Assembly: GCA_050084515.1 (NCBI GenBank)
Contig: CM114271.1
Location: 2,046,001-2,110,000 of the forward strand
Source: Blasia pusilla
Lineage: Eukaryota
Length of the DNA stretch: 64,000 bases
Direction: 5' to 3'
Part shown: in pieces, positions 2,580-59,505 of the stretch
Position numbering within the stretch: position 1 is the first letter of the stretch
How the letters are laid out: each line of letters starts with the position of its first letter
The notes under the pieces: model-generated
Seen by the model: the letters and a program-made list of their open reading frames with translations, nothing else
The model's database searches: none
What the model was told of the DNA's origin: nothing
Translations under genes and position numbers: made by a program

Positions 2580-2584
2580 TTAAC

Positions 2585-27953: not shown

Positions 27954-30074
27954 CGTGAGGCTGGGATGGCTGCTCAAATACAGTAGCTACAACAGCAGAT
28001 TGTAGCTATGGCATTGAGGTTACCCAATGCCGGATCCATGGCATCGACGTCTTATGGAGCCGCTAGAGATATGGAGGATCCTGGTTGGATAAGCGGGGTT
28101 GCCCCAATGGAGGCCGCCGTAGATGTTACGTGTGGAGCAGTCGCAGAGTTGGATCCACAGCGAGGAGAAGCCAGGAAATAGACCAGGCTTCTTCAGTCCT
28201 TCACGTTGTCCGAGGCGATGAGGACCCCATCAATGGGTCCTGATCAGAGTTCCTCGAGAGTTGGTGATGTTTTTGGTGTGTAGGCATGGAGGGCGATGGG
28301 AGAAGCAAGTGCAATGATTCCTATTGCTGATGCTGAGGAGGAGCATGTGTCGAGCACATTGTTGGGGGCGGCCACCGTTGTGTCGTGCGCTCCTTTATTT
28401 TCTGCTTCCAATGTTATAGCTTTGGGAGGTATGCCCCTCAAGGTTTCTGGTTGGCCGCTATACTATGTGAGCGTAGAGTTGGAGTTTCTCCATCACGTTT
28501 AGAGGTGATTGTAGAGGAGGTGATGGACCTGCCCTTGGAGCGGATGCTCGGGCTGTTCACGTCAGATTCATGGTAGGCTGCAACTGCTAGGATGGCGGAG
28601 ATGCCAATTAGACCCGCGATAGAGCGTGCCATGGCTTCTCCTAGTGTTGTGTTGTTGGGTAACCGGGGAGAGGTCTTGCAGTTGGTGAGTCCCGGAGGTA
28701 GAGCTTTTAGTCCACTGTGCGTCTTGTTGGATTCAGGAGCGCAACCCCTGATGTTGGGGAAAGCGTCATTCAGAGGATTGGGCTTGACGAGAGCCAATGT
28801 GGAGCATTTTCCATTCCAGATATAGACATCCTTGGGTGGAGCGAGTACCACCCAATATATCATCCGAGAGGAGGTCGTGGTGAGGATTTTCCCAAGACAT
28901 CCTACGGATGAGTCTGTGGTGCGAGCCAAGGCGATAGTGACTGATGAAGAGTCCTATGACGTCTTGGTTGATGGTGTAGTGTTATATCCGATTGGGGTTT
29001 TTCCTGGATTACTGGGAGGATTCAGCGTCCTACAAACTAGGTAGGCAATCAAGTAATGGGCGCCTTAGCTCATTACCCATTCGATTCATAGGTGTAGTGA
29101 TCGAGCGAGGTCGAGGAGAGATGGTGACCTTAGCAGCATTTAGCAGCCTCATCACTTGGCCTAGAGATTTGATTAAGGGACATGTCCATGCAAAGGATAC
29201 TCCCATTCCTAACATTTCTATGGAGAGGAGTGTCATGGTAGCCCCATCAGTCCGTGGAGGAGATGTGTCGCTTTGGGGGCCGACTGAGGAGCTTCGACGC
29301 TTAGCCACTAAGCATGTGCAGACCGCGTGGAGCAAGATGTTTGCACCAGAGTGTGAATGGGTCAAAGGAACGTGAGGTACCTAGGAATGCTGCTATAACC
29401 CCTTTGGACACCACCCCGATTGTGTGTTGCATCCCAGAGGAGGGTATTTGGGTGTTGGATCTCTTTGGAGGGATCATCACTGGGTTAGCTGTTGTTTTGC
29501 AAGCTGGAGTGCGCATGCAGCAATACCTGTATGCGGAGATTGATGATGTTGCGAAACGCGCTTCACTTCACCATGTGGCGCAGTTATGCCTCTATTTCCT
29601 CGACTTGTTATCTGTGTCCGCCATTCAGGGTTACCAAAGTTCGCTACCGAGGGACATTTCATTGTTGGGGGCGCAGGACTTGGAGCGGGTAGGGACTATA
29701 GACTTGGTCATTGTTGGTTGGCCATGTCACGGCCTGTCGAGTGTTGGACGGGATAGCGGATTAGCTGACTCTCGCTCCAAGTTGTTTTGGGAGATGATGC
29801 GGATCTTGCAACACTTGCAAAAGCATCAGTCTTGTCCTCCAGCATACATTCTGGAGAATGTATCGATTTTGGGTGATTTGAGGCCCTTTGTGGTGACAAG
29901 TGCCCATTTGATGCACGTATGGATCGGCCTGGTAGTTTTTTTGGATGCGGTGAGTGTGGGTTCACAAGCACATTGCCCGTGTGTGTGGTGGACCAACTTG
30001 GTGCCACATGAGGTGTTACGGAGGGCTTATGCGAGAGTGGAGCGTCCCTCTGATTTTTTGGTGGATTCTATATT
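27954..30074 (+). mobile_element. Ty3/gypsy D fragment: gag tail, protease, C5 DNA methyltransferase
   Basis: VLLDSGAQP protease followed by MTase; homologous to 48350-49590 and to the minus strand of 56400-58500. Confidence 0.88.
29380..30074 (+). pseudogene. DNMT3-like C5-cytosine methyltransferase domain in gypsy D, truncated at the 3' end by an LTR junction
   Basis: Motif I VLDLFGGI, II YAEID, IV DLVIVGWPC, VI ILENV, VIII-like GSQAHCPCVWWTN. Confidence 0.88.
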
Positions 30075-31033
30075 TGTCGTATGCCTACTCTCCTTGAGCG
30101 TCAATCTTAGTGTTGCAGAAGCGTACGTTCAGTAGGTCATGCTCTCATTGCCAACTTGCACCCAAACGCACTCATGTTAGTCTAGCTTTGGGTCAAGCGG
30201 CCTCCCAACCCACCGAGTGCTCAACTCAGCATCTCTCATTCCTAGGTTCCCAACACGGGCAAGTCTTCCGAGACTTGGGACAGACTTTTTGGTTAGTCCA
30301 GGTACCTGAAATGGCGTTTGCACGCCTAACAGTCCCAACTTTCCAACAGACCTCGCATGAGCCCTAATCAAGACTCAATGATATGAGTCACAAGTTGGAA
30401 TCCAATCAGGATCTCTGAAATGCCTCTATTAAACTTGGTTTGGGTTTTGAATCCCAACACCAAACTCTTGATCTGTTCCGTGCCCTTGAGTTGCCCCACG
30501 GCGCCCAAAGTGGGGTTCAAGTCCCAAGCACTCTTGGAGACCTTCCCCCTTACTTGTACTTCTACGAAACTCAGGGGTCCCCCCATCTTTGGAAAAGACC
30601 ACCCGAGCCCCTCTTTTTTGCCCTCAACCCGACTCCTCTTACATTTTGTTTTGGCCCATTTCTCAACCGTTGCGCAAGAGTTTGCAAAGATCTTTCGTGC
30701 GTTGAAACCGACTTGGCATAATATTTCCAACGCTACCTTACTTGTGCCAAACACATCTTGGGACTCAAATTTATGGTCAAAACTACAATTGGAAACTCCC
30801 AACACTGCCCGCGTCTCAAGTTCGGTTTTCACCCCTTGGCCGCGTCTCATCCAAGATTTGATTCCTCTCAAGTCCAAGTTCCGCATTTGGTTTCGGTTTC
30901 TTGGTTGCGACCATAAACGCATGAAACACTCAAAATGCGCATCTCGCCCTTATGTTGCCTTAACTCCAAAGCGCAAACCATCCTAGCGTGAGCTCGCTAG
31001 AGTTTTCGCTTGGTGCTTGTTTGGTTATGAGGG
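30075..31033 (-). repeat. Remainder of the chromovirus 3' LTR, inverted
   Basis: On the minus strand it begins with TSD CCCTCATAA and ends ...ATACGACA, the inverted match to the LTR start TGTCGT at 12233. Confidence 0.8.
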
Positions 31034-31447
31034 GAGGTGCGGTAAGAGGAGAGGAAGAGAGGAGAGAGGAGAGAGGAAACTACCTTCAACCCAAAGAGAT
31101 AATTTTTTTTAAGAGAGTTTCCTTTGATTTGAAGAGAGTTTCCGTTGGGTTGAAGAGAGGAAACTTTTTGTGTGATTTTTTTTGCACGTTTCTTCTCAAT
31201 TCTTAAGCACTCCCACAAATTTTTTCCCCTCTTCCACATTTTAGCAACCCATGTGAGTCCGACGAGTTGCAAATTGCACAAAGTTTAGAAAACTGAAAAA
31301 TCAGTGGAATCATAAGTGTGGAACCAATCACTTTTTCTATCCAAGGTCTGGAAAAAATCTCTCATTTGCCTTGGGCTGAATAGAGTTCAAGCTCAAAGTG
31401 AAGGTTTTGGAAAATGAAAGTACGATATAAAACCTCATTTTGCATCC

Positions 31448-34400: not shown

Positions 34401-35212
34401 TTGACTCGCTCGTTGCGGTCTAGATACGGGCATGCTGGACTTCTACACTCTAAGGCTCCAACGCATTGGCGGCGGGAGACAATCCAAGGACCATCTAGAA
34501 TTGAAGCACTAGTCCGTTGAAGCTTGCACCATCGATGAAAATCAGACTTTCTGTCCATACCCTTCAAGCGTCCTCCATCTATCTTTTGAGCAGGAGCAGC
34601 AAGTGGAGGCAACTCAAAAATGCAATTACCATCGTACGTGGGCGGCAACTCGTCGACAAGAATGTGCTTGAACATTTTCAAGGCGAGAGACGACAACAAA
34701 CTATTGCTTGATACTCGCAAGAGGAATGAGTAGGCGGAAAGAGGGCCCGGTTGGTGTCCGACAGATCCATTGAGGTTGACAACAGCCGGAATGTCTTCAG
34801 GAAGTACAACATTGTAATGAACGTGTGAAGTTGGATTTGATGCCGGATCTACTAAGCTAGGAGTTGCAAATGTAGAGCTTGGTGCGCTAGGAAATTCTCG
34901 ACCGTCTACCTCGGAAACTAAGGAATTCAGAGGCAAGCCGTAAACTCTATATTGACCATTTGCTAGAGGTAGGAGATTCCATACTTTACGGTCTCCAATC
35001 ACTGGCTGGATTTTCTCACCTATTATGTCCTCCGTACCATCCACCCTAACATCCTTGGACATAAAGATTGTTCCAATTTGGAGAAGAAATTGAACTGAGA
35101 GAAATTTTTCATCCATTGGTATGAAAGACTCACGAGCTTGCGGTCGAACGATTTCTGATTGAGGAAGGGCTGCTAGATGACTGCCACAAGTGAGCTTCAC
35201 ATAATTATCCAT
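31448..35212 (-). pseudogene. GCM-like/MULE DDE/SWIM transposase, copy A (exons 35212-33222 and 32950-31448)
   Basis: SFDICF, FMADNA, DVFHW; third catalytic residue E>K (GAKSVH); SWIM-like CFPTC*CDDF..PCKY; frameshifts. Confidence 0.82.
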
Positions 35213-36573
35213 TCCCAAAATATTCCACCGGGAGGAGACCGGAAATAAGAATGAGGATAAGAATGGGAATGGGAATGGGTATGAGAATGAGAATGAGAAT
35301 GTTTAATTTATAGTGAATAGGGACTCAAATTCTCCTGTTAGAATTTGACTGACAAGATGAAGTTTGGTAGGTGAGAATGTCTGACATCATGTATTCAATT
35401 TTTTTGCAACCTGTCGGAGTCCAATGGGTTGCAGAAATTGGGAATCACAGACGTGGGTTGCGAAGCACCCAGTTCCATTTTTTGTTTCGGTGTCCCAATG
35501 TAAGTTGGAACCTGTCGGAGTCCGTTGGAACCCGTCAGAGTCCCTTCTTGCCGACCAATGGTCTTTCGAGTCGATTTTGCTAGCATCAAACACCAGACAT
35601 CGCTTGCATTTGCTAAGGCAACCAATCGTTGGGGACTGTTACGCGATTGTCCAACTCAGGGTAGACCTTGTGACCCGTCGTATTGTAAGGGGTTGCCTCG
35701 GACTATGCGTTGTTGCATTGTTACCCGAGGGATAGAAAAGCGTGCAACCTGTCGGTAACCGACGGGTTGCTCAGGTTCCTAGCCTATTACCCCAAGATGA
35801 GGGAAGCGTGCAACCCCTCGGCCTCCGACGAGTTGCGCAGGTACCCCGCCTTGTTATCCCAAGATGAGGGAAGCGTGCAACCCGTCGGCCTCCGACAGGT
35901 TGCGCAAGTGCCTCACCTTGTAATGCTTCCATGAAGGAACCGTGCAACCCATCGGCCTCCGCCGAGTTGCGCAGGTACCCCACCTTGTTATCCCAAGACG
36001 AGGGACGCGTGCAACCCCCCGGTCTCCGACGGGTTGTGCGGGTACCTTGCGTTCTTGCCCGAAGACGGCGGAGGCGCGTAACCTATCGGTCTCCGACGGG
36101 TTTCCAGGATAGCTCGGCTTTTTAACCAGAGGAGGACAGATGCCTGCAACCCGCGAGAAGCGTGCAACCCGTCGGAGCCGTCGGGTTGGTGGTTTTCACG
36201 TCCACACTTCCATGATGGCCGACACGTCGCCGTCGAAACAACGGTGCGATCCAACGGTCAGCCCAACGGCTCGAAAAGTATAAATAGGCGAGGGTTCGCT
36301 CATTTCCGGTTTTTCGTTTCGTGATCTCGATTGCCCTTCCGCGCAGCTGCTGACCAGATACCAAGGGGCGCTTTATACGGCGACTCATCGCAAGACGATT
36401 CGAGCGAACGATCGCGAGACTATTCGAGCGACTCATCAAGGCGACTCATCATGACATCAGCAAGACGACTCATCAAGGCGACTCATCGTGACATCAACAA
36501 GACAACTCATCAAGGCGACTCATCGTGTACAAAAAGTAACTTTGTTGTCGAGGAGGAGGCATTTTCGGAAACA

Positions 36574-40308: not shown

Positions 40309-40544
40309 GTAAGGGCTCTAAATCCATATACAATTTGTCCTGCTCCGACGGTTTGCATCTCTGCATGCAACCCGTCGGATTGTCTAAGCTGGTCACTACG
40401 GTGTTGCAATCCGTCTGAAAGCGATGGGTTGCAAATTTACCACAAGTCTCTATTGGGTGAATGCAACCCGTCGGAACCGGACGGGTTGCAAGTGCTTATG
40501 CTTTTCCTTGTGTTTCTAGAATGATGCAACCCGTCTGAAAGCAA

Positions 40545-40739: not shown

Positions 40740-41831
40740 TGGGAACGGCTCCGTCCATGATACATAATATGGATCATAGTATAGTCGACATGCCTCAATC
40801 TCCTAAGCATATATGTGGGAGAACTCATGGTAATTGTCCATGGGCACCCCCTTTAAATGCTGGAACATACCCTTCCATGTTGTAAACGGGTTGAACTCTC
40901 TAGAGTTCCTAGCCCGATGTGAGTCACACCAACTCCTAAACTCCGCAATAAAGTCATGTAGCTCTATAGTGCCTACAGCACCCAAAAACCTACGTAGTCC
41001 TCTACCTCGGTCGTCCATCTCGTACGCCCAACTGGTAGGACCACTCAATGTATACGGTGGATCACTAACACACTCCTCTACACATTTCCCCTCGTCTGAA
41101 GACGAAACAGAAGGAGATCAAGGTGGTCTCTCACATGGAGACCCTCAAAACCTCGCACCCCTCTGGATAAACCCTCCAGAGCTACTCTCAGGTCCACTAC
41201 CTTGCCTCTCAAAATCCTGAAAGGACACAGTGATGACCCTTGTGCCCCTCTCACATGATCACTCTCAATCTTGCGAGTAATTCCTCAATCACTCAAACTA
41301 AACATGCAGCACTCAATCTACCTACTCTCATTAAGATGTGTGTTGTGCGGCAACAAGCTGCGTGGTGCGGAAAATCAACTGATCTATCGTCTCATCGACA
41401 AACCATCCTCATTTTTGGACATCCCACACAGGTTTATATCCCCTAAACCCATACATCATCGATGCTCTCAGCATCACGACGAAACCCAATATCCCAAATA
41501 ACTTCCCATCACCCGAAAATCCCTAACACGTGTAGGAAAAAAGACTAGAATGAGTAACTTAACAATAAATATCGATAAAGCTCCACAGCAAGTGCAAATC
41601 TTCACCCCTACTCGGTCGTAAGGACAACTCCTCCAAGTATCATGTCGTACTTCCGTGATACTGACAATGCACGAATCTCCTCGATGTGTAGTGTAGGTCC
41701 AACGGTTCGGCGCGACACTACGGTTTGGAATGACTATAAATGGCACGGCACTCAGGAATGGAGTGTAGCACTCGGCGCCATACCCTCCTCAGTCAACAAA
41801 ATGTAATCTGCTCCTAGTGATGGTGCGGCTC
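40740..41831 (-). mobile_element. Gypsy D 5' leader and gag N-terminus
   Basis: SGPTSWAYEMDDRGRG..FRSWCDS..YVSWTEPFP; reverse-complement match to 46776-47878. Confidence 0.85.
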
Positions 41832-42916
41832 TGTTCTAGTGTGGAGAGCCTTTCTTTGAGTGAGGACGGACCTTCTAGTTACAACGGACGTGGCTGATGC
41901 AAGTCAAACTCTATAAGAATTTCTCTTTTTTCAATACAGAATTATTATGTAAGCCCACCATTCTCTCATGATAGGAATCATGAATGGTAGTGTCGAGGCG
42001 ATCACTTCTTCATAATATGGAATCCCGAAATTCCTAACTATGAAGTTCTTGTAAACTACTTTACGTTTGTACACAAGGAAAATACCACAACTAGTGTTAA
42101 ACCCTAATCGAGCAAGCCTATTGACGTTCATGGATAGCTATATAAGGGCATACAAAGTGCAATCCCATGTCCTTCCGTATATGACTATAGGAAGAATCAC
42201 GGGAGTTGAAGATTGCATGACTTGATTCATGAACACGTCCCCAAAGTGATAAACTAGATAGCGAGTGAACCAGTGCCTATCTACAAAGGCAATCTTAACG
42301 TGGTACGGGTTAAGGAAAGGAAAATCCGGCACAACTTGTGCTCCATCCCTATCCACACTTGACAAACATCCTCTACTCTCATCTAGAATGGGATTTGGCG
42401 GAGTTGCTCTCCAAAGAGGGCTAATCCACTCTCATTGGGAAAATAACAAGCCAAACCATCCTCTATTTCTATTATGACTAAACTCATCTAAGGTGACAAG
42501 TCTTTCATCTCCACATATACCACACTCTATAAACCTCTTGAAGAATAGACCAAGGTCAAGTTGCTCTCCCAAGAGGGGTAATCCACTCTCATTGGAAGAG
42601 CAAGCAATCCCAAAGCCATACACTCAAGAGTGACACAAGAGACTCAAGATATGAAGTAGAAGGTGATAAAACCCTTGAAGGTCTCTCCTCTTTATATACT
42701 TACAAGAGATCCACAAGATTACGAAATAAGACTAATCTTATCTTGTGCCACATGGCTTCCTCTCAAGGCTTAGCCAATCATATTTTGCCCCGGAAAACCT
42801 ACTCTCTCAGGTTTCCCGGGGCCTCAGTAGGTCATCATTAACCTCCTGAGTCTATCCTCCACTACTCGTGAAGGCGCTCTACTAGATTGCACCGATCTAT
42901 CCAAAAAGACGTGACA
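41832..42916 (-). repeat. LTR-like sequence (~1085 bp) without TSD
   Basis: Minus strand TGTCAC...AGAACA; its first ~100 bp resemble 45034-45130; it truncates gypsy D exactly at its boundary. Confidence 0.65.
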
Positions 42917-43442: not shown

Positions 43443-43560
<118 letters not shown>

Positions 43561-44785: not shown

Positions 44786-44942
<157 letters not shown>

Positions 44943-45033: not shown

Positions 45034-45912
45034 TGTCACAACTTTTTAGGATATATCGGAGAGATCTGGTAGAGCGTCTTTGCGAGTAGAGTAGGACAAG
45101 CTCATGAGGTCGAGGATGACCTGCTAAAGTCAAAGGTAACTTGCGAGATCAGGTTTTCCCTTTGTTTCGGCTCATTTGGAGCCATATAGAGAAACTTACT
45201 ATTTTTGGTAATTTTCCATTTGGAGCATAGTTGACTTTCCACTTTGGGAAGTGGATCTTGACCCGCTACAGTAGGTCAAGAGCCAAGGAGATGACCTGGA
45301 AGCATAGGTTACCGAGGAGAGAGCTTGGGAGAGGGAAGGGGATATACCTCAATGAGAGAGAGTTTGAGAGCTCATTCTCTCTTTGTTGAATCTCTTGGCA
45401 CAAGGTGGTGTAGCTATGGTCCCTTGCCTTGTGAGTGTAACCCAAGCCTCTCATGAGGAGAGTGGGTTTGGTTTGAAATGAGAGAGATTGCACACATTTG
45501 AGAGCTATGGTGTTGAGAGAGATTAGATCTACTTGACTTGCAAAAAGAGAATGAGTGAGCTATGGTGTTGAATGAGATTAGATCTTCATGGGGGAGCTCG
45601 CTCATCACTCGCTGGTTTTATAGGTTGGGGATTGTATTCCCCATGTAGCGGTTCATGGGAGTGCTCACCAGAGCAAGAGCCGCTTACTTTTGATGTTTCC
45701 TTTGGCGATTTTTCGTGTGGAAGAGTGGCGCACGGAAGCACTGCCCAAGTTTTGATAGGGATTGAGTATGGGGGTGGATTGCCCCATGCTGGTGCTCCCA
45801 AGAGCACCATGTAGCTTTCTGATTTGTATTTTCACAGGTTTTACATTCTCGTTGGGAGAAAGAAGCGCTGCCAAATTTTGCTAAGGAGACAGAGACGTTG
45901 GGCTGCACAACA
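45034..45912 (+). repeat. LTR-like sequence related to 41832-42916 (3' boundary uncertain)
   Basis: Starts TGTCACAAC after purine tract AAAGGGAGAGG; similar 5' end; candidate end CACAACA. Confidence 0.45.
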
Positions 45913-46399: not shown

Positions 46400-49300
46400 A
46401 GACGCGCAAACCGGTTGTGGACTTGCTACCGCCGTTGTATGTTGTGTGGTTCATCGACGCTTTTAGGGCCGCTACCAGGTTGTCAGACCTCCTGGTGCCA
46501 AAAAACTATTGAGCCGCCCCGCAACCATGTGCTCCTCCGTCCAACCCTGCGTTACTGCCGCCCGTAGAGCCGGGCGTTTGAATCTCTATCCTAGACCACT
46601 GCGGCTGCTTGTGTTCACTAGCGACCGTTTTCATTTTTGGATTGATGAGGTCGTTGTGTTCCATCCGCTTTGTTATGCCGTGATTTGTAGCCGCTTGAGG
46701 ATGATCGAGTACCATGTTGTGACGCCTATAGCCACGCCGTGCCGCTTGTGGCGGCACCGCACCGTCTCGATCGCCGAGCCGCACCATCATTGGAGAGCAG
46801 AGCGTGTATTGTTGTTGAGGAGGGCATGCCGCTGGGTGCCGCACCCTATTACCGAGTGCCGTGCTATTTTTAGCCATTCCGTGTTGCGAGTGCCGCACCG
46901 TACCGTTGGACCCGCACTGCACATCGAGGAGATTTGAGCATTGTCAATACTAGAGGAGTACAACTTGCTGCTTGGAGGAGTTGTCTTTACGACCGAGTTG
47001 GGGTCGAGATTTGCAGTTGCTGAGGAGTGACATCGATATTTATTGTCAGGTTATCCATTCTAGTCTTTTGCCTTGCACGTGTTAGGGATTTTTGGGTATT
47101 GGGAAGTTATTTGGGGATATTCGATTTTGAATGTGTGTGATGCAGATGCTGAGAGCATCATTGATGTATGGGTTTAGGGGACATAGATCTGTATGGGATG
47201 TCAAGAGTTGAGGGTATGTCCTATCATGAGATGATAGGATAGTAGTCTATTTTCCGCACCGCACCACTTGTTGCCATACAGCACACGTCTTAGTGAGAGA
47301 GTGTGGATTGAGTGCCTCCTATTTAGTTGAATGCTTTAGTGATTACTTGCGAGGTTGAGAGTGATTGTGTGAGGGGGGCACGAGGGTTATCACGGCATCC
47401 TTCTGGGGCTTTGAGAGGCGAGGTGGTGGACTTGAGAGTAGCTCTAGAGGGTTGATCCGGAGTGGTGCGAGGTTTCGAGAGTTTCCACATGAGAGACCAC
47501 CTCGATCTTCTTCTTTGTCGTCTTTAGACAAGGGGAGGGAGGAGGAGTGTGCTAGTGATCCACTATACACATTGAGTGGTTCCACCAGTTGGGCGTACGA
47601 GATGGACGATCGGGGTAGAGGACCGTGTAGGTTTTCGGGTTGTATAGGCACTATAGAGTTATACGACTTCATTACGGAGTTTAGAAGTTGGTGTGACTCA
47701 CAGCGGGCTAGGAACTCCAGAGAGTTCAACCCATTTACAGCATGGAATGGAATGTTCCAGCAATTAGAGGGGGCACCCATGGACGATTACCATGAGTTCT
47801 CGCAGAGATATGCCCATGAGATTGAGACTTGGAGATTACTATGACCCACATTATGTGTCATGGACTGAGCCATTTCCAGATAAGGAGGAGGAGTTAGGAG
47901 AGGGTTCCTCCACCAGTGATGTTGTAGGAGGGGTGATTCGCATTGGAGCAGTTGCATCGTCCAATCGAGTTTGTATCAAGTTCAACCCCGTGGTTGAGTT
48001 CTTCGCTGAGTTGAGGGAGAGCTACCAAGGGGTACAAACGGAGAAGTTGCAGAGCATCCACGACTTCCAGAGGCGACCAATTTAGAGTTTGCGTGAGGCC
48101 TACACCCGCTTGCGCTGGTTGATTAACGTCACTCAAGGGGTGACAAAGACTTAGGCTATCCAATCATGGTATGCGATGGTAACCGAACCCTGCGGACATG
48201 TGTGCGAGAGGAGGTTCTTCTTATGAACACGTCCCCTACGTTGAGAGATGTTTTTAGGACCGCCGAGAATATTGAGCAACATGGCAGAGGAGACCGTAGC
48301 TACCATGGGTTGTGGGCGAGAGCAGTCACGAATGCCTGCACCACCAATGCAGCAACGTGGATTCCAAGTATAGGTTTGTGGCACCACGAGCATCGATGAG
48401 GACCCTATCGATGGATCTTCATCAGAGTTCCCGGAGAGTTGGTGATATTGTTGGTATGCACGCACAGAGGGCAATGGGAGAAGCGAGTATGATGATGCCT
48501 ATTGCTGATGCTCAGGGGGAGCATGTGTTGAGTACGATGTTGGGGGCGACCATGATGGTGTGTCGTGCTCCGCTGTTTTCTGCTTCCGATGTTATGATAT
48601 TGGGAGATATGTCAACCGAGGTGTTCTGGCTGGCGGCTGCGCTATGTGAAGGTGGAGATGGAGTTCCTACATCACGTTCAAAGATGATTGCAAAGGAGGT
48701 GATGGATCTGCCCTTGGAGCTTATGCTCGGGCCTTCCATGTCAGATTCATGGCAGGCAGCGGCTGCTAGGTTGGCGGAGATGCCCGCGATAGAGCGTGCC
48801 ATGGCTTCTCCTGGTGTTTTTTTGTTGGATAATCGGGGAGAGGTCTTCCAATTGGTGAGTCCAGGAGAGCTTTTAGTCCATTTGCACAGAGGAACCCGAG
48901 CTAGCCGAGAGTGCTATGATGACGCCCTTGGATACCACATCCATTGTGGCGCATCCCAGAGGAGGGTATTCGGGTGTTGGATCTCTTTGGAGGGATTAGC
49001 ACTGGGTTAGCTGTTGTTTTGCAGGAAAGAGTATGCGTACAACAATAGATGTACATGGAGATTGATAATGTTGCGAGGCGCGCTTCACTTCACCATGTGG
49101 CACAATTATGCCTCCGTTTTCCCAACTTGTTGTTTGCGTCCGTTGTCGAGGGATACTAAAATTCCCTACCGAGGGATATTTCATTGTTGGGGGGGCAAGA
49201 CTTGGAGCGGGTAGGGACCATAGACTTGGTCATTGCTCGTTGGCCGTGTCAAGGCCAGTCGGGTGTTGGGCGGGATAGTAGATTAGCTGACTCATGTCTA

Positions 49301-51965
49301 GGTTGTTTTGGGAGATGATGCGGATCTTGCAACATTTACAGGAGCATCAGTCCCGTCCTTCACCATACATTCTAGAGAATGTGCCAATTTTGGGCGATTT
49401 GAGGTTCCGCGTGGTGACAAATGCACATAAGGTGCGTGCGTGGATTGACTCGGCAGTATTGCTGGATGCGGCGAGTGTAGGTTCACGAGCAGATCGCCCG
49501 CATCTTTGGTGGACCAACTTGGTAACACTTGAGGTTTTGCGGAGGGCGTATGCTAGAGTGGAGTGCATTTGTTGGTGGATTCTATTCTGGATCCAGGTCG
49601 TCAATCACAGACAATGAGGCACGATGATCGACAGCCGTTGATTGTGGTCAACACAATTGGCATGCCACGGGCAGCCTTTCCCATATTTGTGAGTTTTCCC
49701 GCTTTCTATGCATTCAAGGAGGCTAGACGTGGCTTGGGTTGGGATGATCAGGTCGAGTGGTTGGTGGAGCCCCACGCCAATGAGCGAGAGCGAGCGATGG
49801 GATTCCCCACAAGGATGACGGTAGTACCGTCACTATCAGAGGCATCACGACGTCATGTCTTGGGTAAGATGTTGGACCTGAATTGCTTGACATGGATTTT
49901 TAGCTTAGGAGTAGCTGAGCAACATCGTTTGAGATTGCGACAAATGACAGTTGTTGTGTTGGTGAGCCCCATGCCTACCAAGACGGTTGAGGCAGTGGCT
50001 GGGGATGAGACCCGAGGAGATCGATACACCATGGGTGATTGAGAGAGACACCCTTGGATTTCTTGGGATGTGTTGCAGGTATGTTGGGAGATGATAGCTA
50101 TAGCATCGAGCGTGGTTCTGGATACTACACGTGAAGGAGATTCGATTTTGCAATTGGGTGTAAGACAACACTTGAGTTTGATTGTCCGAGACGGGATTGC
50201 ACCATAGCAACCATTGACACCCACGCCGGAGAGTCCTACCGTAGTCACGATGGAGACTTGGGAGCCAAACATGGGCCCTAAGTTGATAGGAGGAGAGCGG
50301 TGCCAGATACATCAGTTCCTAAGGAGTTATAGGAGTTTTTTTGCATTTAGCAGGCATGATTTGGGTACACTGAAGGGTCTAGGGATTCGCATTGAGTTGT
50401 CGAGTGACACGCCGATCTTCTGACGACTCTACAGGTATAGTGACAATGAGAGGGCTCTGATACAGAGTAGGAGCCATGACTTGGTGGGAGTAGGACTAGT
50501 GGAGATGTCACATGGAGAGTATGCATGTGCCACTATCATGCCTACCAAGAAGGATGTGCATGGCAACTGGACGAATAGGCGGATGTGTGGAGATTACCGA
50601 CCCATCAATCGGTAGACAAAGTCAGATAGGTATGTTGTGCCCATCCCCAAGGAGATCTTTGATGCGATTGGGCATGCAAAGGTCTTCAATTCATTGGATT
50701 TGTGAGGCGGATACCATCAGTTGCCTATCAGATTGGAGGACAAGAACAAGACAACACTTTGGGGCATCGATGCTCACGGGAAGGATTGTTTGTACCAGTG
50801 GTGGTTCTTACCATTCGGGTTAAAGAACGCCCCAACTGAGTTTTAGAGGGTCATGGATAGGATCTTGGTAGGTATGGATTTTGCTAGATGTTATATTGAT
50901 GACATCGTAGTCTTTAGCGTCACGGTTGAGGAGCATGAGCGATATCTAGAGGAGGTGTTTCAACAAGTATAGTTACATGGGCTAAAGCTACATCTAGGCA
51001 AGTGCAAGTTCTTCTACAACCAGATTGAGTACTTGGGTCATACGATATACCCAGGGGGCCTTGGTGTGCAGCAGACAAAGATAGAGGCTATTTCACGCAT
51101 TCCACGCCGTACAGATATGAGTCGAGTTCGTGCATTCATGGGATTGGCAAACTTCTATCAACGGTACGTCAAGGGTTTCAGTTTGATTGCGAAGCCGCTG
51201 ACCTTGGTAACCAAGGTGGATCAGGAGTGGCACTAGGGGGATGAGCAGGAGAGAGCATTTCAACTCTCAAGGACTGATTTATGTCCGCGCCCATATTGAG
51301 GAGACCGATCAAGGGGCATTCTTTCTAGTTGCATACAGATTGGAGCATGTTGGGGCTTGGAGTCGTGCTCACCCAACATGACGATGAGGGTAGAGAGTTT
51401 GTGATGGCTTACTCTAGTCCCTTGAACAACATTGCAGAGGCAAAGTATAGCTCGTATGAGGGTGAGTGCTTGGCTGCGGTGTGGGCTATCGCACATTTCA
51501 AGTGTTATCTATTCGGCAATCCCTTTACCATCAATACTGATCATCAGCCACTTAAGTGGTTGATGGAGTCCGACAAGCTTAAAGGGATGCTTGCGAGGTG
51601 GGCTCTTTTATTGCAGGAGTATGACTTCCAAGTGGTGCAAAGACCTAGGATGCTCAACCAGTATGCAGATGGTTTGAGCCATAACCCATGCCTGAGTCAA
51701 CAAGATGCAACTAGAGCTCGTTGGCATGGTGAGAGTGATAAGGAGTTGGTGCCAAGATGGCACGCGTTAGCCTATTTGGGCTTGTTGGCTATGGAGAGCC
51801 AGATTACTGAGACTTTGATGGCAAGGTCTGATGGAGAGTTCTTAGATCCAGGGGCCAATTAGGAGATGACAGGTGGCAGAGACATTCACGACGATGGAAT
51901 GATCTTGGAGTACCTGCCTATTGGCAGCGTCGCGAGCACAATGGGTGCTAGAGAGCGGGATCGGA
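46400..51965 (+). mobile_element. Ty3/gypsy F with C5 methyltransferase (decayed; start approximate; interrupted at 51965 by gypsy E)
   Basis: gag ~47365-48300; protease deleted near 48870; MTase ~48900-49930; RT (RMCGDYRP, PFGLKNAP, YIDDI); RNase H (TDWS, YEGECLA, TDHQPL). Confidence 0.88.
48900..49930 (+). pseudogene. DNMT3-like C5 methyltransferase domain in gypsy F
   Basis: RVLDLFGGISTGL, DLVIARWPCQ, YILENV, GSRADRPHLWWTN, ERERAMGF (IX), RRHVLGKMLD (X); frameshifts. Confidence 0.85.
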
Positions 51966-52548
51966 TGTCGTGCAAATCCACATCGTCATACAACATACAT
52001 CGCTGACATACCAGACTCACATACATACATAACATAGAGGAGAGCATACACAAACACAAGTGTACCACAACTGAAATCCGTGAAAGATTCTATACGTGTG
52101 TAAAACACGTATAGAATCACATACAATCGAGCCAAACCCACTCCACGATGGGAGAATCCAGGTCGAAGCTTTCGAAAACCACCATAGCCAAGAGCTCTAC
52201 TCACTACCAAGGCTAACTCCCAACGCAACATGATCAACTCAAAGAACTAATTGTTCTTTGAGTACACTCCACACTATACCTTCCAACCTAAGGGCGGGCC
52301 CTACTGGAAAAGTCACCCTCAACGGAGTAACCCCCAACCCTATGTATGAAACCACATCCCTACCTAGACACTACTGCACTATATAAGGTATGGCCTCTAC
52401 TAGAACACTATACTCTACGACATAATCCGTATGGTCATGATAGTTGTCATGCGAATCCACATCGTTATTCAACATACATCGCTGACATACCACACTCACA
52501 TACATACATAACATAGACGAGAGCATACACAAACACAAGTGTACCACA
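51966..52548 (-). repeat. 3' LTR of gypsy E, with ~105-bp direct repeats at both ends
   Basis: Minus strand TGTGGTAC...CACGACA; 51966-52072 is repeated at 52445-52551. Confidence 0.8.
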
Positions 52549-52723
52549 ACTCGCCCCCCTAATTGGCAGTTAGGTCCCTCTAACTCCTAGGTAGCCCTAT
52601 ACATCTACTACATGCTATACACCTTCGTGGGTGCACGAATCAGAAGGTCAGGTGCGAGGTTGCCCCATCGTTAGTCGCACATCTATAATCCATATCATGC
52701 AAAGATCAAGTCATCTATCCCTC

Positions 52724-52870
52724 CTAAGTACATTGAGGACAAATCCACCTTCCAGTAGGAACAACATCCATACGTGGAGTCAAACACATCATGTGCCAAC
52801 CCCTAGAACACCGATCACACACCAACATACGCGTTGCGTTACCAGCAGACCCACACAACATGCACCTCAA
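52724..52870 (-). pseudogene. PHD finger at the C-terminus of gypsy E integrase
   Basis: CMLC..MLVCDRCSRGWHMMCLTP..VPTGRWICPQC (C4HC3 with the conserved W). Confidence 0.93.
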
Positions 52871-55800
52871 GCTAGCACGTATCATAGCTAAGCTTGGGTC
52901 AACAGTACCACCACATTTGGAAGATGACATGGCGTAAAATTACGTACATGGTCCTTCCAAACAACTCCGTCACGACCCTCCAACATGAGAACTCCAGAAG
53001 CTAACACCTCTCGTACTCGTAAAATAGTGCGGCATGCCATCACATCCAACGTTGTCGGTGCAATCTGCTGCAAATAGACATAGTCCCCCACATGGAACCT
53101 ACAAATCGATGGTCGATAACCTCCACCCCGAATGGTTGCATACTGCAACGTATCCATGTGTTGAGCAATGGCAAGATTCTCAAAGGCTGTTGGCATAACT
53201 CTCCAAAAGAGCTCTGCCCGTTGAGAACACACTCTCATCCACATCACTGGGTCATCAAGGTTCACCACTTCACTAGACTCCCGACGAATTGCTGTTGGCA
53301 AGTCTGGATCTCGGCCGTTTAACAGAAAATAAGGTGAGAAGGAAGCCAAGGATGCTTGGCGACTGAACCTATACCCCATGGCTAACCATGAAAACTGAAT
53401 ATCCCTGTCTCCAAGATGCCCCTTCTGTAGGCCATACTTGCACAATTCCCTCTTCACCAACTGAACCACACGCTCAGCCAAACCATCCGCCTCTGGATGA
53501 TCTCAAGACGTGGTCCGATGACCAATCAACGTCTTGTCACACAAGACCTGAAACTCACCTTGAAACTCTGTACCCTAGTCCATCAGCACCTCAGTTGGTG
53601 CACCAAAATGACTAAGCAGTCTATCAAGAAACGCATACGTCGTTCCCTCACTTGCCTTGTCAGGTAATGTCACCAACTCAATCCACTTGGAGAAGTGCTC
53701 CACCATCACCAACACATATCGATGATGTTGTATAGTCAACGATAACGGTCCCGCAAAGTCCACACTCCAACGTTAACCCAACCCCATAATAGGTAAGGGG
53801 TGTAACTATGGTGTAGGGGCATTGAATAATGCCCTCACACGGTCACAAACCATATAATGTGACACCAAATTCTGCACCTAAGTATGCATGCCACGCCACC
53901 AATATTGACCAAGGAGTAAACTATATGTACGCTTTACCCCAAAATGTCCCAACTCCTCATGGGTATTTTGCACAATGCGCTCTCTCTGAGCCAAATACGG
54001 CACCACTCGTACTCTACCATCCTCCCACACACGGAGAATATGTGTTCCCTCCAATCGATACCTCCTAGCACGTTGAAGAACACGGTCTCGCTCCTTGGCA
54101 CTCACTATGCCTAGCACCCTACTGGTCCGTAGGAACTCCAACACCAACGCATCATCATGAATATCACGCTGATCCGTACCACTATCTCCAACCTCAGGAT
54201 CTAAAGGTTGGCCATCTACCCTCTGACTAGAGTAAGATGTCATGTGGTGCTCCATACTAGAGTCCACCCCTAACCAACATAAAAAGGCACATGCATGCCA
54301 ACCTGGCACCATCTCCTCATCAACCTCGCCATGCCATCTAGCCCCAGTTGCATCCTCTTGGCTAATACATGGGTTCCTACTCAACCCATCAGCATCAAGG
54401 TTGGCAATTCCAGGTCTATGTACCACCTAGAAGTCATACTCTTGTAAGATAAGAGCCCATCGTGCAAGCTTCCATGTAAGCTTGTCAGACTCCATCAACC
54501 ACTTGAGCGGCGGGTGATCAGTAACAAGGGTAGACTGTGTGCCAAAAAAGTAACACCTAAAGTGTGCCACAACCCACACTACTGCCAAGCACTCTCCCTC
54601 ATATGAACTATAGCGCAACTCCGCTGCATTATTCGAACGACTTGCATAGGCCACCACAAACTCCATGTGCTCATCATCATGTTGTTTCAACACCGCTCTA
54701 AGTCCCAACATACTCCAATCAGTGTGCAACTGAAATGGGCGCCCTCTGATAGGTCTCCTCAAGATAGCCGCGGCCACCAACTGGGCCTTGAGCTCCACAA
54801 AAGCTCTCTCTTGATCATCTCCCTAATGCCACTCCTGATCTGATTTCAGCAATTGGTTCAAAGACTTTGCCATAGCACTAAATCCCTTCACATACCTCCG
54901 ATAGTAGTTCGCCAATCCCATGAATGCCCGACCTCTACTCACATCTACCGAACGAGGAATAAGTGCAATAGCCTCCACTTTTTCTTGCTGAACTCCCAAA
55001 CCACTTGGATAGATCACATGACCCAAGTACTCAACATCCTCATGGAAGAACGTACACTTTCTTGGATGCAAACGTAGACCATGAGCTTTCAACCAATCAA
55101 ACACAATCTGCAAATGTATCTGATGCTCCTCCATCGTGTTACTGAATACCAAGATATCATTAATGTAACACCGAACAAAATCCAACCCTGCTCGGATCTT
55201 GTCCATCACTCTCTGAAACTCGGCAGGTGCATTCTTCAACCCAAAGGGTAAGAATTTCCACTGGTACAAACAATCCTTGCCATGAGAGTTGACACCCCAA
55301 AATGCTATCTTTGCCTTGTCACTCTCTTGAATCGGCAACTGATGGTATCTTGCTCGAAGATCCAAAGTACTGAAAATCTTTGCCTATCCCACCACATCAA
55401 AGATCTCCTCAGGTGTAGGCATGGCATACCTATCAACCTTGGTTTGTTGATTGATAGGACGGTAATCTCCACACATCCGCCTATCCGTGTAGTTGCCATG
55501 CACATCCTTTTTAGCAGGCATGATAGTGGCTGATGCATACTCTCCATGCGACAACTCCACTAATCCAACCTCCAAAAGGTCCAATGTCCTACTCTCAATC
55601 AGATCCCTCTCCATATCACTATATCGGTAGGGACGACGGAAGATTGGCGTGTCACTAGCCAAATCAATCCGTATACCGGGTCCAACCAAAGCACCCAACT
55701 CCTTCATGCTAAAGGCAAAACAACTCCTATAAGCACGTAGGAATTGTGTCAAGCGTCGTTTCTCACCTTCCATAAGCTTGGGCCCAAGTAATGGCTCCCA

Positions 55801-56084
55801 AGTCTCCTCCACTAGCACACTAGAGGGAGAGGACGACGCCATTGGCTGCTATGCAACCCCCTCACAAGATAGTACACCCTTAGCTACACCATCATCTGAG
55901 CAAATAACTCCTCCACCAGCATAAGCAACCAACTCCACATGCCCAGCCATTACATCCCATTTATTCCAAGGATGCAAAATACTACTCTCCTCGCCCCCAG
56001 CTGATGCCTCTATCGTCTCGGTAGCCATCGAGCTCATCACAAGGGGTGGAAGACCCACAGACATAGTCCGAAGTTGATGCTGCT

Positions 56085-57070
56085 CGGCCATACCAAGACT
56101 CAAAATCCAGGTCAAATAATTCAGGTCCATGGCTTGACCCAACACATGACGTCGTGAAGCTTCAGAAATGGAAGCAACCGTTGTCACACCAGTAGCAAAT
56201 CCCATCACACGCTCTCTCTCATCAGCGTTAGGCTCCACCAACTATCGCACATGAGAATCCCATACAAGCCCAGGACCATCTTCTGTGTAGGCATGTGATG
56301 AGGGAAAACTCACAAATGTGGGTAATGCCATCCTAGGCTGCCCCACACGGTTCACCACTGCCATGGGTGACCGATCAATAACCCTCACCACATGAGAAAG
56401 TCGCCTAGTATCCAAGATACTATCCACTGTAAGGAAAGGATCCCGCTACACTGCATCATATGCTCGACGTAGAACCTCCCTAGGCAACAAGTTTGTCCAC
56501 CACAAGCGTGGACGATGTGCACGCGTCCAACAACACCGCTGGTCCAATCCAAGACCGCACCTCATGAACACTCGCCATCATCCGGGTTCGAGTGTCACCC
56601 AACAATGGAACATTCTCCACAATGTAAGCTAGAGCACGTGCCTGATGAACCTGAAGATGTTGTGTCACACGCAACATCTCCCAAAACAATCGAGATCTAG
56701 GGTCATGTAATCCCTCACTACGACCAGCACGTGTATGAAACTAATATGGCCATCCAACAATCACCAAATCTACAGGACCAACCCTCTCAAGGTCTTGCGC
56801 TCCCAACAATGCAATGTGTGACGGCAAAGCACGTTGGTACCCACGATTAGCTTATGGCGGCAACAACTCAGGATATCTCCACATCAACTGACCAATATGT
56901 TGGGATGAGACTCTCTGGGCCGTCTCATCTCGCTCCACATACCCGTATCTCCGCACAAGAATACCGGCCTGCAACACTGTAGCCAAACCAGTGCTAATCC
57001 CACCAAAGAGATCTAACACACATATGCCCTCCGGCGGATACAACCATACAATGGGTGTAGTATCCAAAGG
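56085..57070 (-). pseudogene. DNMT3-like C5 methyltransferase domain in gypsy E
   Basis: VLDLFGGISTGL, YVERD, DLVIVGWPY* (catalytic C lost), YIVENV, ERERVMGF, RRHVLGQAMD. Confidence 0.85.
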
Positions 57071-59505
57071 GGATAATCCAAGTGGACCAGAAGTAGGAGT
57101 CCACCATGGAGCCTCCTCTTCCTTGTAAGGTATAATAGCCTCACACCAAGCCTCCTGCACTAGGCGATCAGCCTCCTGCCGTAGTGCACACCATGAACTC
57201 CAAAGTGGCACATCCAACGATGAGGATACCATTGCTGCAAAACTAGGGACCTCGTCTACCTCCTCATGCACAGGATCCATAGCACAAAGGTTACCCTCCA
57301 AAAAGTCTCCTGGCCAAGTGACTACTCCACTACAACTAGCCACAAATGCTAACACTATTGGGGAAGACCCTCTTGGTCTAGCCCCATAAATAAATTTCAC
57401 AGGAACCTGGCTCATACGTCCATCCCCGGACTGCCAACCAGGTCTATAAGATGCTGTCTCAGTCTAGTACTCCATCTGAAAACCCATCGGGTACAATACT
57501 GCTCCTCCAATTAGTACATCATACGACTCGGCCGATGTGACCACTGCAAGTACTCCCAACCTAGAGCTATCAGTTGCATTATATGGTCTCAACTGTATAG
57601 ACAACTTCCCCCGTGTCATGAAATGAGACCTATCATTGGCTCCTCCAAGTGATGTCTGAATCTGGAATGGGCAAGGCTCAAGCTCTGACCTCTGAATACC
57701 CAAACCAATACATGTTGCCTTTCCCAACATCAAAGGTTGGGCACCAGAGTCTAACAAGACTCTATCTGGTCTATACACCTGTCTTGTAGGACTCACCAAT
57801 AGGAATATCCCACTCCGGTTGTCCAACATACAAACACCAAGTGTAAGCCTCTCATGATCAATAGTTGGCCGGGCTGGTAACGCATCCATCTTCGTCGCTG
57901 TTGCTTGCCAAGTAGCACTGGTACTCAATGCTACACTTGACATAGAGGGTTGCTCCACCGCAACATTCTCATCCACCTTAGCACTTGTAGCAATAACACT
58001 CTCATGTTCACACAACGTTGCTGCTAGTTGAAATACAGAAGCTAAGTCAACTCCTAAGGCCATCAACTTAGTGGTTGAAAACAATGGGGATTCCAACATT
58101 GAAGTTGCCATCCGCAATACTACACTGGATGTTGCATCTGTGTCTACTACACGCGATGTAGATGCCTCAATCCCCACTGTAGGCTCAATAGGGTGCGTAG
58201 GAACCATGGATGGAGTCCTAAGCACTTCAGACAACAAGAATGACTGGGGGAGCCTAGCCTGCCTCCCAACCTCACCCCTCTGTGGGCCCAACTCCACAGT
58301 AGCACCACGTGGCTCTAACGCTCGAGTGGCTCCTCTCGTAATTGCAGCTGATGCCTCAACCTGTGCTGCACTCGCCATATAAGAGAGATCATCCCCTCCA
58401 TAAGAGGTGGAAGCCCCTCCTCCCGAACCTGCTCTATGTTGGATACCAACCATAGTAGCCAACCTCTGCTCCAACTGCTCAATCCTAGCAGCCATAGCTG
58501 ACTCTATCGTAGTGGTAGGGGCAACCACTGTAGGCTCTCCAACCGATGGTCCACCTCTACCACCCCTACCACTTCTACAACCTTGGCCTCTCGGAGCTAC
58601 TCCACCACGGCCACAGCCTGATCTCAACTCTGGATGAAGATCAAAGCAACGCTCTCGAGGATGACCTAGTCTCCCACAATGATCACACTGAGTTGGAGAT
58701 GACTGAGGTCCATCCTCCAAAGTCCGTCTCCCATCCTCTTGGGGACAAAACCTCCTAACATGATCACCTCCACATGTCCAACATGACTGTCCTTGCTACG
58801 GGGCAGCAAATGAAGGCAATGGTCTCTACGCAAGCATCCCTCTAGGACCTAACTGAGGTCGTGTGGACCCCCCACGACTCCCACTACTACTACCACCACC
58901 ACTACTATAAGATTGTGAGGTGGATTGCTGAACACGAGAAGTAGTAGTTGTATCCCTACTGAATGTGGATGTCACCACCCTCTCCTCCACCATGTTAAGC
59001 TCAATCTTCTTAGATAGAGCAAACACATGGGCCAATGTGGATGAATCATCACTCATAAGAGTAGCATCACGTACCCTACGGCGTAACTCTCTGTCCAAGA
59101 TCCCATACCAAAATTGGACTGCCTAAGCCTCAGTCACACCCTAGGTCACTGAAATCAAGCGTCGCATACGAGTGTATGCCTCACGAAGACTCTCATCAGT
59201 CTTTCGCTCAAATTCCTGAAGACTCCTCAACTTCTCTGTCTTCACCCCCTGATAGTTCTTCTTCAACCTTTTGAAGAACTCTACAACCAGGCTGAATGAT
59301 GGTGGGGCACTAGTACCCCCACTAGAACCTCCATGGGTACCTCCACTGGTACCCCCACTCCAGCTCGTACTCGCACCACTCAACCTTGGGGTGGCTGACA
59401 AAGTAAGAGCAATACTCCCAATACCACCATGGATGATAGACACATAGTCCGGAGACCAATATTGTCTCCACGCCTCAATCTCAGCAGCATGGTCCCTCCT
59501 AAACT

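What the first reader, a model, noticed from the sequence alone, without database searches (positions are those of the whole stretch)
27954..59505. Gypsy family encoding a DNMT3-like cytosine methyltransferase between protease and RT (three copies)
Seen: C5-MTase motifs I, II, IV, VI and VIII in copies D, F and E, with IX/X in F and E. The catalytic PC is intact in D (GWPC) and F (RWPC). The AHRPRLWWTN-like segment resembles DNMT3 AHRARYFWGN. Known: retrotransposon-borne DNMTs are reported in dinoflagellates and charophyte algae. Inference: if the host is a land plant, this extends the range. The copies are clearly diverged, implying an old, successful lineage that may methylate its own cDNA.
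Basis: partly seen in the sequence, partly recalled or inferred. Interest (0 to 1): 0.75.

Follow-up and report, generated by a model that had tools for sequence, protein, structure and literature searches.

The report
Liverwort retrotransposon carrying DNMT3-like methyltransferase
These are three broken copies of a very abundant liverwort jumping gene that carries its own DNA cytosine methyltransferase, a kind described before from a green alga; it appears to make the enzyme in bulk with its particle protein and to hide its integration tips inside its terminal repeat, which points to an unusual way of inserting into the genome.

Summary
Three decayed Ty3/Gypsy copies carry a DNMT3-fold C5 methyltransferase (Pfam, AlphaFold/Foldseek to DNMT3A). 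The host is a liverwort, judged from its own DNMT3 gene. The family covers about a fifth of 200 kb sampled and has relatives in Marchantia, Calypogeia, Sphagnum, Closterium and Klebsormidium; it is the land-plant branch of KnitGypsy-Dnmt3 (de Mendoza 2018). The methyltransferase is under purifying selection (dN/dS about 0.1) and is not a recent capture of host DNMT3. Enzyme activity, readthrough and the circle route are inferred, not shown; base composition gives no support for self-methylation. All three window copies are dead.

The parts
27994..30071 (+). Copy 1 (D/E-type subfamily): end of gag region, protease (LDSGAQP 28727-28747), methyltransferase motifs I-VIII (29458-29997); cut off at both ends
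29422..30071 (+). Copy 1 C5 methyltransferase, PC intact, motif VIII arginines lost, no IX/X
   Evidence: PF00145 6.9e-12; motifs
40740..42916 (-). Fourth fragment of the family: start of repeat A, part of the leader and the gag N-terminus; no methyltransferase
45034..45540 (+). Copy 2, 5' repeat A (starts TGTC; target duplication GCTT matches the 3' end outside the window)
45371..45380 (+). Copy 2, presumed RNA 5' end inside A, complementary to the primer site after A
   Evidence: start site inferred from a TATA-like box about 28 nt upstream
45546..45555 (+). Copy 2, self-priming site directly after A
47614..48391 (+). Copy 2 gag, followed by deletions that remove the protease motif
48944..49900 (+). 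Copy 2 C5 methyltransferase, motifs I-X, RWPC at 49238, frameshifted
50205..50213 (+). Copy 2 amber stop with readthrough context TAG CAA CCA
50208..51969 (+). Copy 2 RT (YIDD 50892) and RNase H; interrupted by insertion of copy 3
57800..59505 (-). Copy 3 (F-type subfamily) gag with CCHC zinc knuckle (58646-58687); 5' part displaced by a 12.5-kb insertion
   Evidence: weak Retrotrans_gag hit E 0.01, below cut-off
57734..57754 (-). Copy 3 aspartic protease active-site motif LDSGAQP
   Evidence: relatives hit Asp_protease_2 weakly
56100..57040 (-). Copy 3 C5 methyltransferase, motifs I-X, catalytic cysteine lost
55843..55851 (-). Copy 3 amber stop with readthrough context TAG CAG CCA, ending ORF1
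52904..55848 (-). Copy 3 ORF2: RT, RNase H, integrase (H2C2 and core)
   Evidence: Pfam RVT_1 4e-28, RT_RNaseH 1e-32, Integrase_H2C2 3e-9
52727..52903 (-). PHD finger at the end of integrase
   Evidence: PF00628 5.7e-12; PDB PHD fingers down to 2e-16
52552..52561 (-). Polypurine-tract-like G run directly before repeat B1
52443..52551 (-). Repeat B1 (ends GACA)
52436..52450 (-). B|A junction, palindrome GACA-NN-TGTC (decayed in this copy)
52072..52440 (-). Repeat A2
51966..52072 (-). Repeat B2, element 3' end; target duplication TCCG matches the 5' end at 73988

Best explanation
A liverwort Ty3/Gypsy retrotransposon family of the KnitGypsy-Dnmt3 lineage. Shown from sequence: A - leader - ORF1 (Gag, protease, DNMT3-fold methyltransferase) - amber stop - ORF2 (RT, RNase H, integrase, PHD) - G-rich tract - B|A-B, with TG..CA ends and 4-bp target duplications. 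Inferred working cycle: (1) the RNA starts inside A; most ribosomes stop after the methyltransferase and a minority read through TAG-CAR-YYA, so each particle holds far more methyltransferase than RT. (2) The RNA 5' end folds back on the site just after A and primes the minus strand without tRNA; the plus strand is primed at the tract before B. The real LTR is therefore B+A and the linear cDNA is BA-coding-BA, whose natural ends carry no TG..CA. (3) The two ends are joined (the A-B joint) and integrase opens the molecule at the palindrome inside the 5' LTR, nicking after CA on both strands, which yields A-coding-B|A-B. (4) The methyltransferase acts in the particle on the new cDNA, as a DNMT3-type de novo enzyme, so the copy integrates already methylated; the PHD finger reads histone H3 tails at the target. 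Step 4 is the least certain.
For: Fold and motifs: AlphaFold model pLDDT 94.7, Foldseek best hits all DNMT3A/B/C, top 8e-20, TM 0.71/0.83; catalytic Cys and the ENV Glu invariant in 46 aligned relatives. Selection: dN/dS 0.083-0.117 in 8 of 8 comparisons of one F-type frame with D/E-type frames. Stop: 1506 exact genome matches to the flanking pattern, control 0; 92 TAG and 4 TAA among the first 100 listed (hand count); same TAG-CAR-CCA in the second subfamily and TAR-CAR-YYN at 69 or 76 codons before RT in 23 of 33 metagenome loci with a methyltransferase; CAR YYA is the TMV readthrough signal, 6-10% in transgenic plants (PMC2754532). Repeats: both A and B pairs in 7 of 10 long stretches and in metagenome loci L134, L150, L151; 593 exact B|A junctions, control 0. 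Target duplications: exact in 10 of 14 copies whose 5' end was found, of 20 tried. Priming: 13-16 nt perfect complement in 6 of 6 own-genome elements outside the window, with different sequence in the two subfamilies, against at most 8-9 nt in 49 control windows per element; fold z -4.0 and -3.0. G tract before B in 11 of 11 elements shown. A-B joint precise to one base in 25 of 28 resolved ends; one keeps 167 nt of primer site and leader, one a 17-nt tract-like insert.
Against: No activity, expression or readthrough measured. Isolated KnitGypsy domain gave no methylation in yeast (PMC5890265). No extra CG or CHG depletion against neighbouring elements. A circle has two equal palindromes, so a permuted A-B|A-coding-B form is expected, yet 0 of 30 junction loci show it; this asymmetry is unexplained. 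Self-priming complement was only 6 nt in 2 of 3 metagenome elements and 10 nt in window copy 2. The readthrough context is absent from the 6 most distant metagenome loci (42% methyltransferase identity or less) and from 4 closer decayed ones, and the Klebsormidium gene model has one open frame. dS is near saturation (1.9-2.4). Most copies are dead: PC intact in 20 of 30, ENV in 26 of 30, both motif VIII arginines in 9 of 30.
Confidence: 0.6

Rival explanations
1. Same element, but the DNMT domain is kept for a non-catalytic or non-cDNA job: binding nucleic acid in the particle as part of Gag, methylating the RNA, or shielding the att palindrome by binding.
For: Position in the abundant ORF1 suits a structural role; no compositional trace of self-methylation; yeast test negative for KnitGypsy.
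Against: Catalytic Cys and Glu invariant, motif VIII arginines and SAM-binding glycine nearly invariant over 46 relatives from algae to liverworts, which a pure binder need not keep; best structural matches are DNA enzymes.
Confidence: 0.2
2. The A-coding-B-A-B form arises on a linear molecule by an extra RT template jump or by a DIRS/Ngaro-type use of the internal B|A junction as template for both ends, without a two-LTR circle opened by integrase.
For: No permuted integrants in 30 loci; the A-B joint is precise and shares one base, as a template jump would; de Mendoza describes the repeat order as that of DIRS.
Against: B starts exactly after a conserved purine tract and A ends exactly at the self-priming site, which are the natural ends of an ordinary BA-coding-BA cDNA; aberrant joints keep primer-site or tract-like sequence; 4-bp duplications and TG..CA ends show a DDE integrase, and no tyrosine recombinase was seen in Pfam scans of the element or relatives.
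Confidence: 0.3
3. The methyltransferase is a recently captured host DNMT3 fragment riding neutrally, and the stop is decay.
For: Most copies carry many TAG/TGA stops from C-to-T decay, and TAG can arise from CAG.
Against: dN/dS about 0.1; AU test rejects a clade of host DNMT3 plus liverwort element enzymes, p 0.0007; the same domain in the same slot in Klebsormidium and Closterium; 92 TAG against 1 CAG in 100 copies.
Confidence: 0.02

Closest known systems
KnitGypsy-Dnmt3 of Klebsormidium nitens (de Mendoza et al. 2018, PMC5890265; parts 1-4 of 7 read)
   Same: Gypsy domains with DDE integrase, Dnmt3-like domain, DIRS-like repeat order, purifying selection. Klebsormidium KFL_009030040 (P0363) has the same order protease-DNMT-RT-RH-IN, 45% DNMT and 44% RT identity, and falls in the same clade.
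   Different: Land-plant host; about a fifth of sampled DNA against few copies; readthrough stop placing the DNMT in the Gag ORF (the paper places it in the Pol ORF with RT); PHD finger, self-priming, purine tract and att palindrome not mentioned in the text I read (0 hits for PHD; figures and the main supplement not seen).
Chlorophyte Gypsy elements with RT-RH-DNMT-IN-PHD (Scenedesmus KAF8056149, Chromochloris Cz02g39130; database proteins)
   Same: Same methyltransferase clade (SH-aLRT 98-99) and C-terminal PHD.
   Different: Methyltransferase sits between RNase H and integrase; separate group in both trees. I found no paper describing them.
SymbioDIRS-Dnmt3 (PMC5890265)
   Same: Dnmt3-type domain in a retroelement with split repeats; shown to methylate CG de novo in yeast.
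   Different: Tyrosine recombinase, dinoflagellate host, independent capture.
Tf1/Sushi and Tcn1 self-priming Gypsy elements (PMC6317226, passages)
   Same: No tRNA primer site; RNA 5' end predicted to prime.
   Different: Those are chromoviruses with ordinary LTRs; this family has a PHD, no chromodomain, and split repeats.
Host plant DNMT3 (MpDNMT3i type, PMC6453930) and human DNMT3A
   Same: Unpermuted motif order and fold.
   Different: No DUF3444, no introns, long branch apart from host DNMT3 and DRM; motif IV reads GWPC, not GGFPC/GGSPC.
Phygy/Selgy of REXdb (PMC6317226)
   Same: Non-chromovirus Gypsy of seed-free plants.
   Different: Phygy prefers NCGN targets; the 14 left-hand target sites read here show no such bias. 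No methyltransferase or PHD mentioned for them. REXdb sequences could not be compared.

Membership tests
KnitGypsy-Dnmt3 lineage (Gypsy-DNMT3) | Ty3/Gypsy domain set and order (protease, RT, RNase H, DDE integrase) | tested here: met
KnitGypsy-Dnmt3 lineage (Gypsy-DNMT3) | Intronless, unpermuted Dnmt3-related domain with conserved catalytic residues | tested here: met
   residues decayed in many copies
KnitGypsy-Dnmt3 lineage (Gypsy-DNMT3) | Repeats arranged A-coding-B-A-B | tested here: met
KnitGypsy-Dnmt3 lineage (Gypsy-DNMT3) | Common ancestry of DNMT and RT with the Klebsormidium element | tested here: met
   DNMT-before-RT clade SH-aLRT 100 and 90; RT split SH-aLRT 100 with long-branch animal outgroups unresolved inside it; quick trees only
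KnitGypsy-Dnmt3 lineage (Gypsy-DNMT3) | DNMT in one uninterrupted Pol ORF with RT | tested here: not met
   same frame but a conserved amber stop between them; hence a variant, not a plain member
KnitGypsy-Dnmt3 lineage (Gypsy-DNMT3) | Purifying selection on the DNMT | tested here: met
   dN/dS 0.083-0.117
Active C5 cytosine methyltransferase | Methyl transfer to cytosine | not testable with these tools
   motifs and fold only
Host plant DNMT3 | C-terminal DUF3444, introns, clade with host DNMT3 | tested here: not met
   host gene found separately on C4; AU p 0.0007
DIRS/Ngaro tyrosine-recombinase elements | Tyrosine recombinase, no target duplication | tested here: not met
   rve integrase and 4-bp duplications
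Self-priming LTR elements (Tf1-like) | Primer site after the 5' repeat complementary to the RNA 5' end | tested here: inconclusive
   complement 13-16 nt in own-genome elements, 11/6/6 nt in three metagenome ones; RNA start not mapped
Phygy/Selgy (REXdb) | RT clade and NCGN target preference | tested here: inconclusive
   no NCGN bias; RT tree against REXdb not possible

The most novel reading that the evidence does not exclude
An LTR retrotransposon lineage of streptophytes that must join its cDNA ends and integrate from a circle opened by a retroviral-type integrase at a palindrome inside the LTR, and that loads its particle with a DNMT3-type enzyme at Gag levels. The enzyme methylates the cDNA and may decide which of the two att palindromes (each holds CTG cytosines on both strands) is cut, which would explain why only one of the two possible integrated forms is seen. 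Marchantia polymorpha carries the family, so this can be tested in a genetic model.
Probability: 0.3. Interest if true: 0.88.

Novelty: new variant of a known kind. Interest (0 to 1): 0.72.

Why it matters
What a retrotransposon gains from its own cytosine methyltransferase has been open since 2018, when the only plant-side example was a low-copy algal element whose domain showed no activity in yeast. Here the same lineage is a dominant repeat in a land plant and is present in the model liverwort Marchantia, where methylation mutants and reporters exist. The readthrough stop predicts that the enzyme is a bulk particle component, not a minor Pol passenger. The repeat anatomy gives a concrete reading of the DIRS-like ends and predicts integration by way of joined ends, which LTR elements are not thought to use. 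Practically, such elements lack paired LTRs at their ends and may be missed or mis-trimmed by LTR finders, and their ORF1 products are annotated as host methyltransferase genes in bryophyte proteomes.

Tried and rejected
Expression: no RNA holder listed; the four small-share runs are contigs of unknown kind, cover the whole element patchily and include the nested junction, so they say nothing on transcription. CG/CHG depletion as a sign of self-methylation: none beyond neighbours; transitions between A1 and A2 run 13.6% at CG, 12.1% at CHG, 5.7% at CHH sites, which reflects host methylation after insertion. Host lineage by DRM homologues was not decisive (52-55% to mosses, a lycophyte and seed plants); matK search found nothing; three DNMT3 motif patterns failed or gave a chance hit before a fourth found the gene; PF11926 found only a DnaJ-type gene. 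ESM Atlas gave only generic DNA_methylase clusters. First reading of A1/A2 as ordinary LTRs was dropped when B appeared. The idea that the two junction bases come from flanking host DNA was dropped: 88 of the first 100 are GC, AC, GT or AT, as expected from decay of GC (hand count). tRNA scan of three element stretches found none (not a test of a tRNA primer site). The careful 62-row tree did not finish; quick trees are reported. The genome-share sample stopped at 20 stretches on C1-C4.
Full report
Observation. Six-frame translation shows three decayed copies of one Gypsy family. I label them by position: copy 1 (27994-30071, +), copy 2 (45034-51969, +) and copy 3 (59505-51966, -). Copy 3 is nested in copy 2, which resumes at 74021 beyond the window, and is itself split by a 12.5-kb insertion; their target duplications match across the gaps (GCTT and TCCG). 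Methyltransferase motifs I, II, IV, VI and VIII occur in all three, IX and X in copies 2 and 3, and PF00145 hits copy 1 at 6.9e-12. Only copy 3 shows protease, methyltransferase and RT together, and it has lost the catalytic cysteine. All three are dead.

The domain. A naturally open 336-residue frame from another copy (L021, P0001) matches human DNMT3A best in the PDB (6e-12), then DNMT3B, DRM2 (1e-5) and M.HhaI (4e-4). Its AlphaFold model has pLDDT 94.7 and all 32 Foldseek rows shown are DNMT3 entries, top 8e-20. The catalytic Cys and ENV Glu are invariant in 46 aligned relatives. Between the two subfamilies dN/dS is 0.083-0.117 in 8 of 8 comparisons, against 0.016-0.088 for three ORF2 stretches and 0.18 for protease plus linker; dS is near saturation and all comparisons share one F-type copy.

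Host and abundance. The genome has 390 Mb in 26 contigs. Its own multi-exon DNMT3 gene shares with Marchantia MpDNMT3i residues that the moss, lycophyte and gymnosperm rows of the Yaari alignment lack (YSCEV, FLAENV, YWSNIP, GHKMGLHGQ; PMC6453930 supplement, compared by eye; hornworts are not in that alignment). I therefore call the host a liverwort. The methyltransferase search gave 12594 first-look candidates, of which 150 were scored, all at E below 1e-94. In 20 evenly spaced 10-kb stretches of C1-C4 the family covers 21% (standard error 7%) with 7 methyltransferase places in 200 kb. A1/A2 identity runs from 88 to 99% in 14 copies and 99.5% in one F-type copy, so insertion went on over a long span up to fairly recent times.

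Range and ancestry. Named relatives are Calypogeia fissa (70%), Marchantia polymorpha (57-68% over most of the domain), Sphagnum (46-55%), and by ORF2 also Riccia, Coleochaete, Closterium, Tetraselmis and Klebsormidium. Klebsormidium KFL_009030040 has the order protease-DNMT-RT-RH-IN and is taken here to be a KnitGypsy-Dnmt3 copy (inferred from species and domains). In the methyltransferase tree all 52 element enzymes group apart from host DNMT3, DRMs and two phage enzymes (SH-aLRT 98); the 29 that lie before RT form a clade (100) holding Klebsormidium, Closterium and a bryophyte group (100) (quick tree). The RT tree separates the same two architectures, with long-branch outgroups unresolved. 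A clade of host DNMT3 with the liverwort element enzymes is rejected (AU p 0.0007). Only one host DNMT3 was available, so the ultimate donor, host or viral, is not settled. 28 of 31 metagenome loci with enough upstream DNA carry the methyltransferase (several are the same insertion in different assemblies).

Readthrough stop. One F-type copy has open frames of 1254 and 934 codons separated only by TAG CAG CCA. Copies 2 and 3 have the stop at the same place. Genome-wide, 1506 places match the flanking pattern, control 0, and 92 of the first 100 read TAG, 4 TAA, 1 CAG, 3 other (hand count). 23 of 33 metagenome loci with a methyltransferase have TAR-CAR-YYN 69 or 76 codons before RT; the 6 most distant and 4 decayed closer ones do not. 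CAR YYA after UAG is the TMV readthrough signal, giving 6-10% in transgenic plants (PMC2754532, passages). So ORF1 is Gag-protease-DNMT and ORF2, ending in a PHD finger, is reached by readthrough. This is inference from a conserved signal.

Repeats and ends. Self-comparison shows A (about 515 or 368 bp) - coding - B (about 128 or 110 bp) - A - B, the order de Mendoza gives for KnitGypsy in a figure legend. Ends are TGTC and GACA, with exact 4-bp duplications in 10 of 14 copies, one mismatch in 2 and no match in 2; 6 of 20 had no 5' end in the stretch fetched. The inner B|A junction is GACA-NN-TGTC, 593 exact places, a perfect palindrome when NN is GC, as in the F-type copy and L187. B begins right after a conserved G-rich tract in 11 of 11 elements shown, and A ends right where a 13-16 nt perfect complement to a site within A begins, that site lying about 28 nt after a TATA-like box; the two subfamilies differ on both sides of the pairing; controls reach 8-9 nt; two of three metagenome elements reach only 6. 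Self-priming is known for Tf1/Sushi and predicted for Tcn1 (PMC6317226).

Mechanism. B start and A end are thus the natural ends of an ordinary cDNA with LTR = B+A, and the A-B joint is their union: precise to one base in 25 of 28 resolved ends, with one keeping primer site and leader and one a tract-like insert; 11 of 39 were unresolved. Nicks after CA on both strands of the palindrome would leave recessed CA ends with 2-base overhangs, the form integrase inserts (established knowledge; IS3-family circle junctions and foamy-virus LTR junction cleavage are recalled precedents, not checked). Opening at the 5' palindrome gives exactly the genomic form. The weak point is that opening at the other palindrome should give a permuted form, seen in 0 of 30 loci. 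The methyltransferase most likely acts on the cDNA in the particle; nothing here shows it, and composition is neutral on it. The PHD resembles those of KMT2C/D, CHD4, DPF and KDM5; that many of these read unmethylated H3K4 is recalled, and its specificity is untested.

Novelty. Gypsy-borne DNMT3 is known from Klebsormidium (PMC5890265; parts 1-4 of 7, passages of the review file; figures and the main supplement not seen). Two later papers refer to it as found in streptophytes without naming land plants in the passages I saw (PMC12344493; bioRxiv 10.64898/2026.05.21.726589; their supplements not seen and may list bryophytes). Ten library searches and passage checks of PMC6317226, PMC11982613, PMC11244446, PMC12885004, PMC9985172 and the Chlamydomonas v6 preprint (section 17; a Gypsy with PHD) found no report of the family in bryophytes, of the readthrough stop, or of the repeat mechanism; the library lacks most subscription papers. 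Earlier unchecked notes of this scan saw the family in moss-like genomes and an internal att palindrome in another Gypsy; I reached both readings before seeing them and they are not independent support. Verdict: a real, new variant of a known kind; interest 0.72.

Noticed in passing
window 12435-27951 (also about 31400-40700 and 59900-72000): A large element family with terminal inverted repeats (arms 12435-12579 and 27807-27951, 90% alike), several ORFs and internal 64-, 67- and 101-bp tandem arrays; three copies here, one inserted into copy 3's gag. One ORF ends in a C-x-C...C-K-Y motif that recalls a SWIM finger of Mutator-like transposases (recalled). Pfam gave no hit above cut-off on five of its ORFs.
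   Followed up: no
G000:C20 and C23 (L031-L034): Small contigs with phage-like genes (terminase-like ORF, stand-alone methyltransferases); the C23 enzyme has DNMT3-like motifs. Probably co-assembled phage DNA.
   Followed up: partly
outside window, 73451-73988: Copy 3's 5' end reads A, B, then about 60 bp identical to the flank of its own 3' end, then the leader: apparently overwritten from the 3' end after insertion.
   Followed up: partly
L096, L097 (G000:C1, 65 kb apart): Two close DRM paralogues in opposite orientation, only 52-55% identical to any database DRM.
   Followed up: partly
L219 7323-8324: A methyltransferase hit with no DNA match to either subfamily used here, so at least a third subfamily exists and the 21% share is a lower bound.
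   Followed up: no
P0319; P0462: A Coleochaete scutata transcript encodes a stand-alone ORF2-like protein 67% identical, hinting at expression in a charophyte; a relative is filed in NCBI under an uncultured cyanobacterial bin, probably plant DNA in the bin.
   Followed up: no
window 126-11525: Three Copia remnants and a chromodomain-type Gypsy remnant (9291-11525), unrelated to the finding.
   Followed up: no
L186, L187, L190: A distant metagenome group (38-39% methyltransferase identity) has TAG CTC ACC 42-45 codons before RT; L187 keeps a 16-bp perfect B|A palindrome and the G tract.
   Followed up: partly
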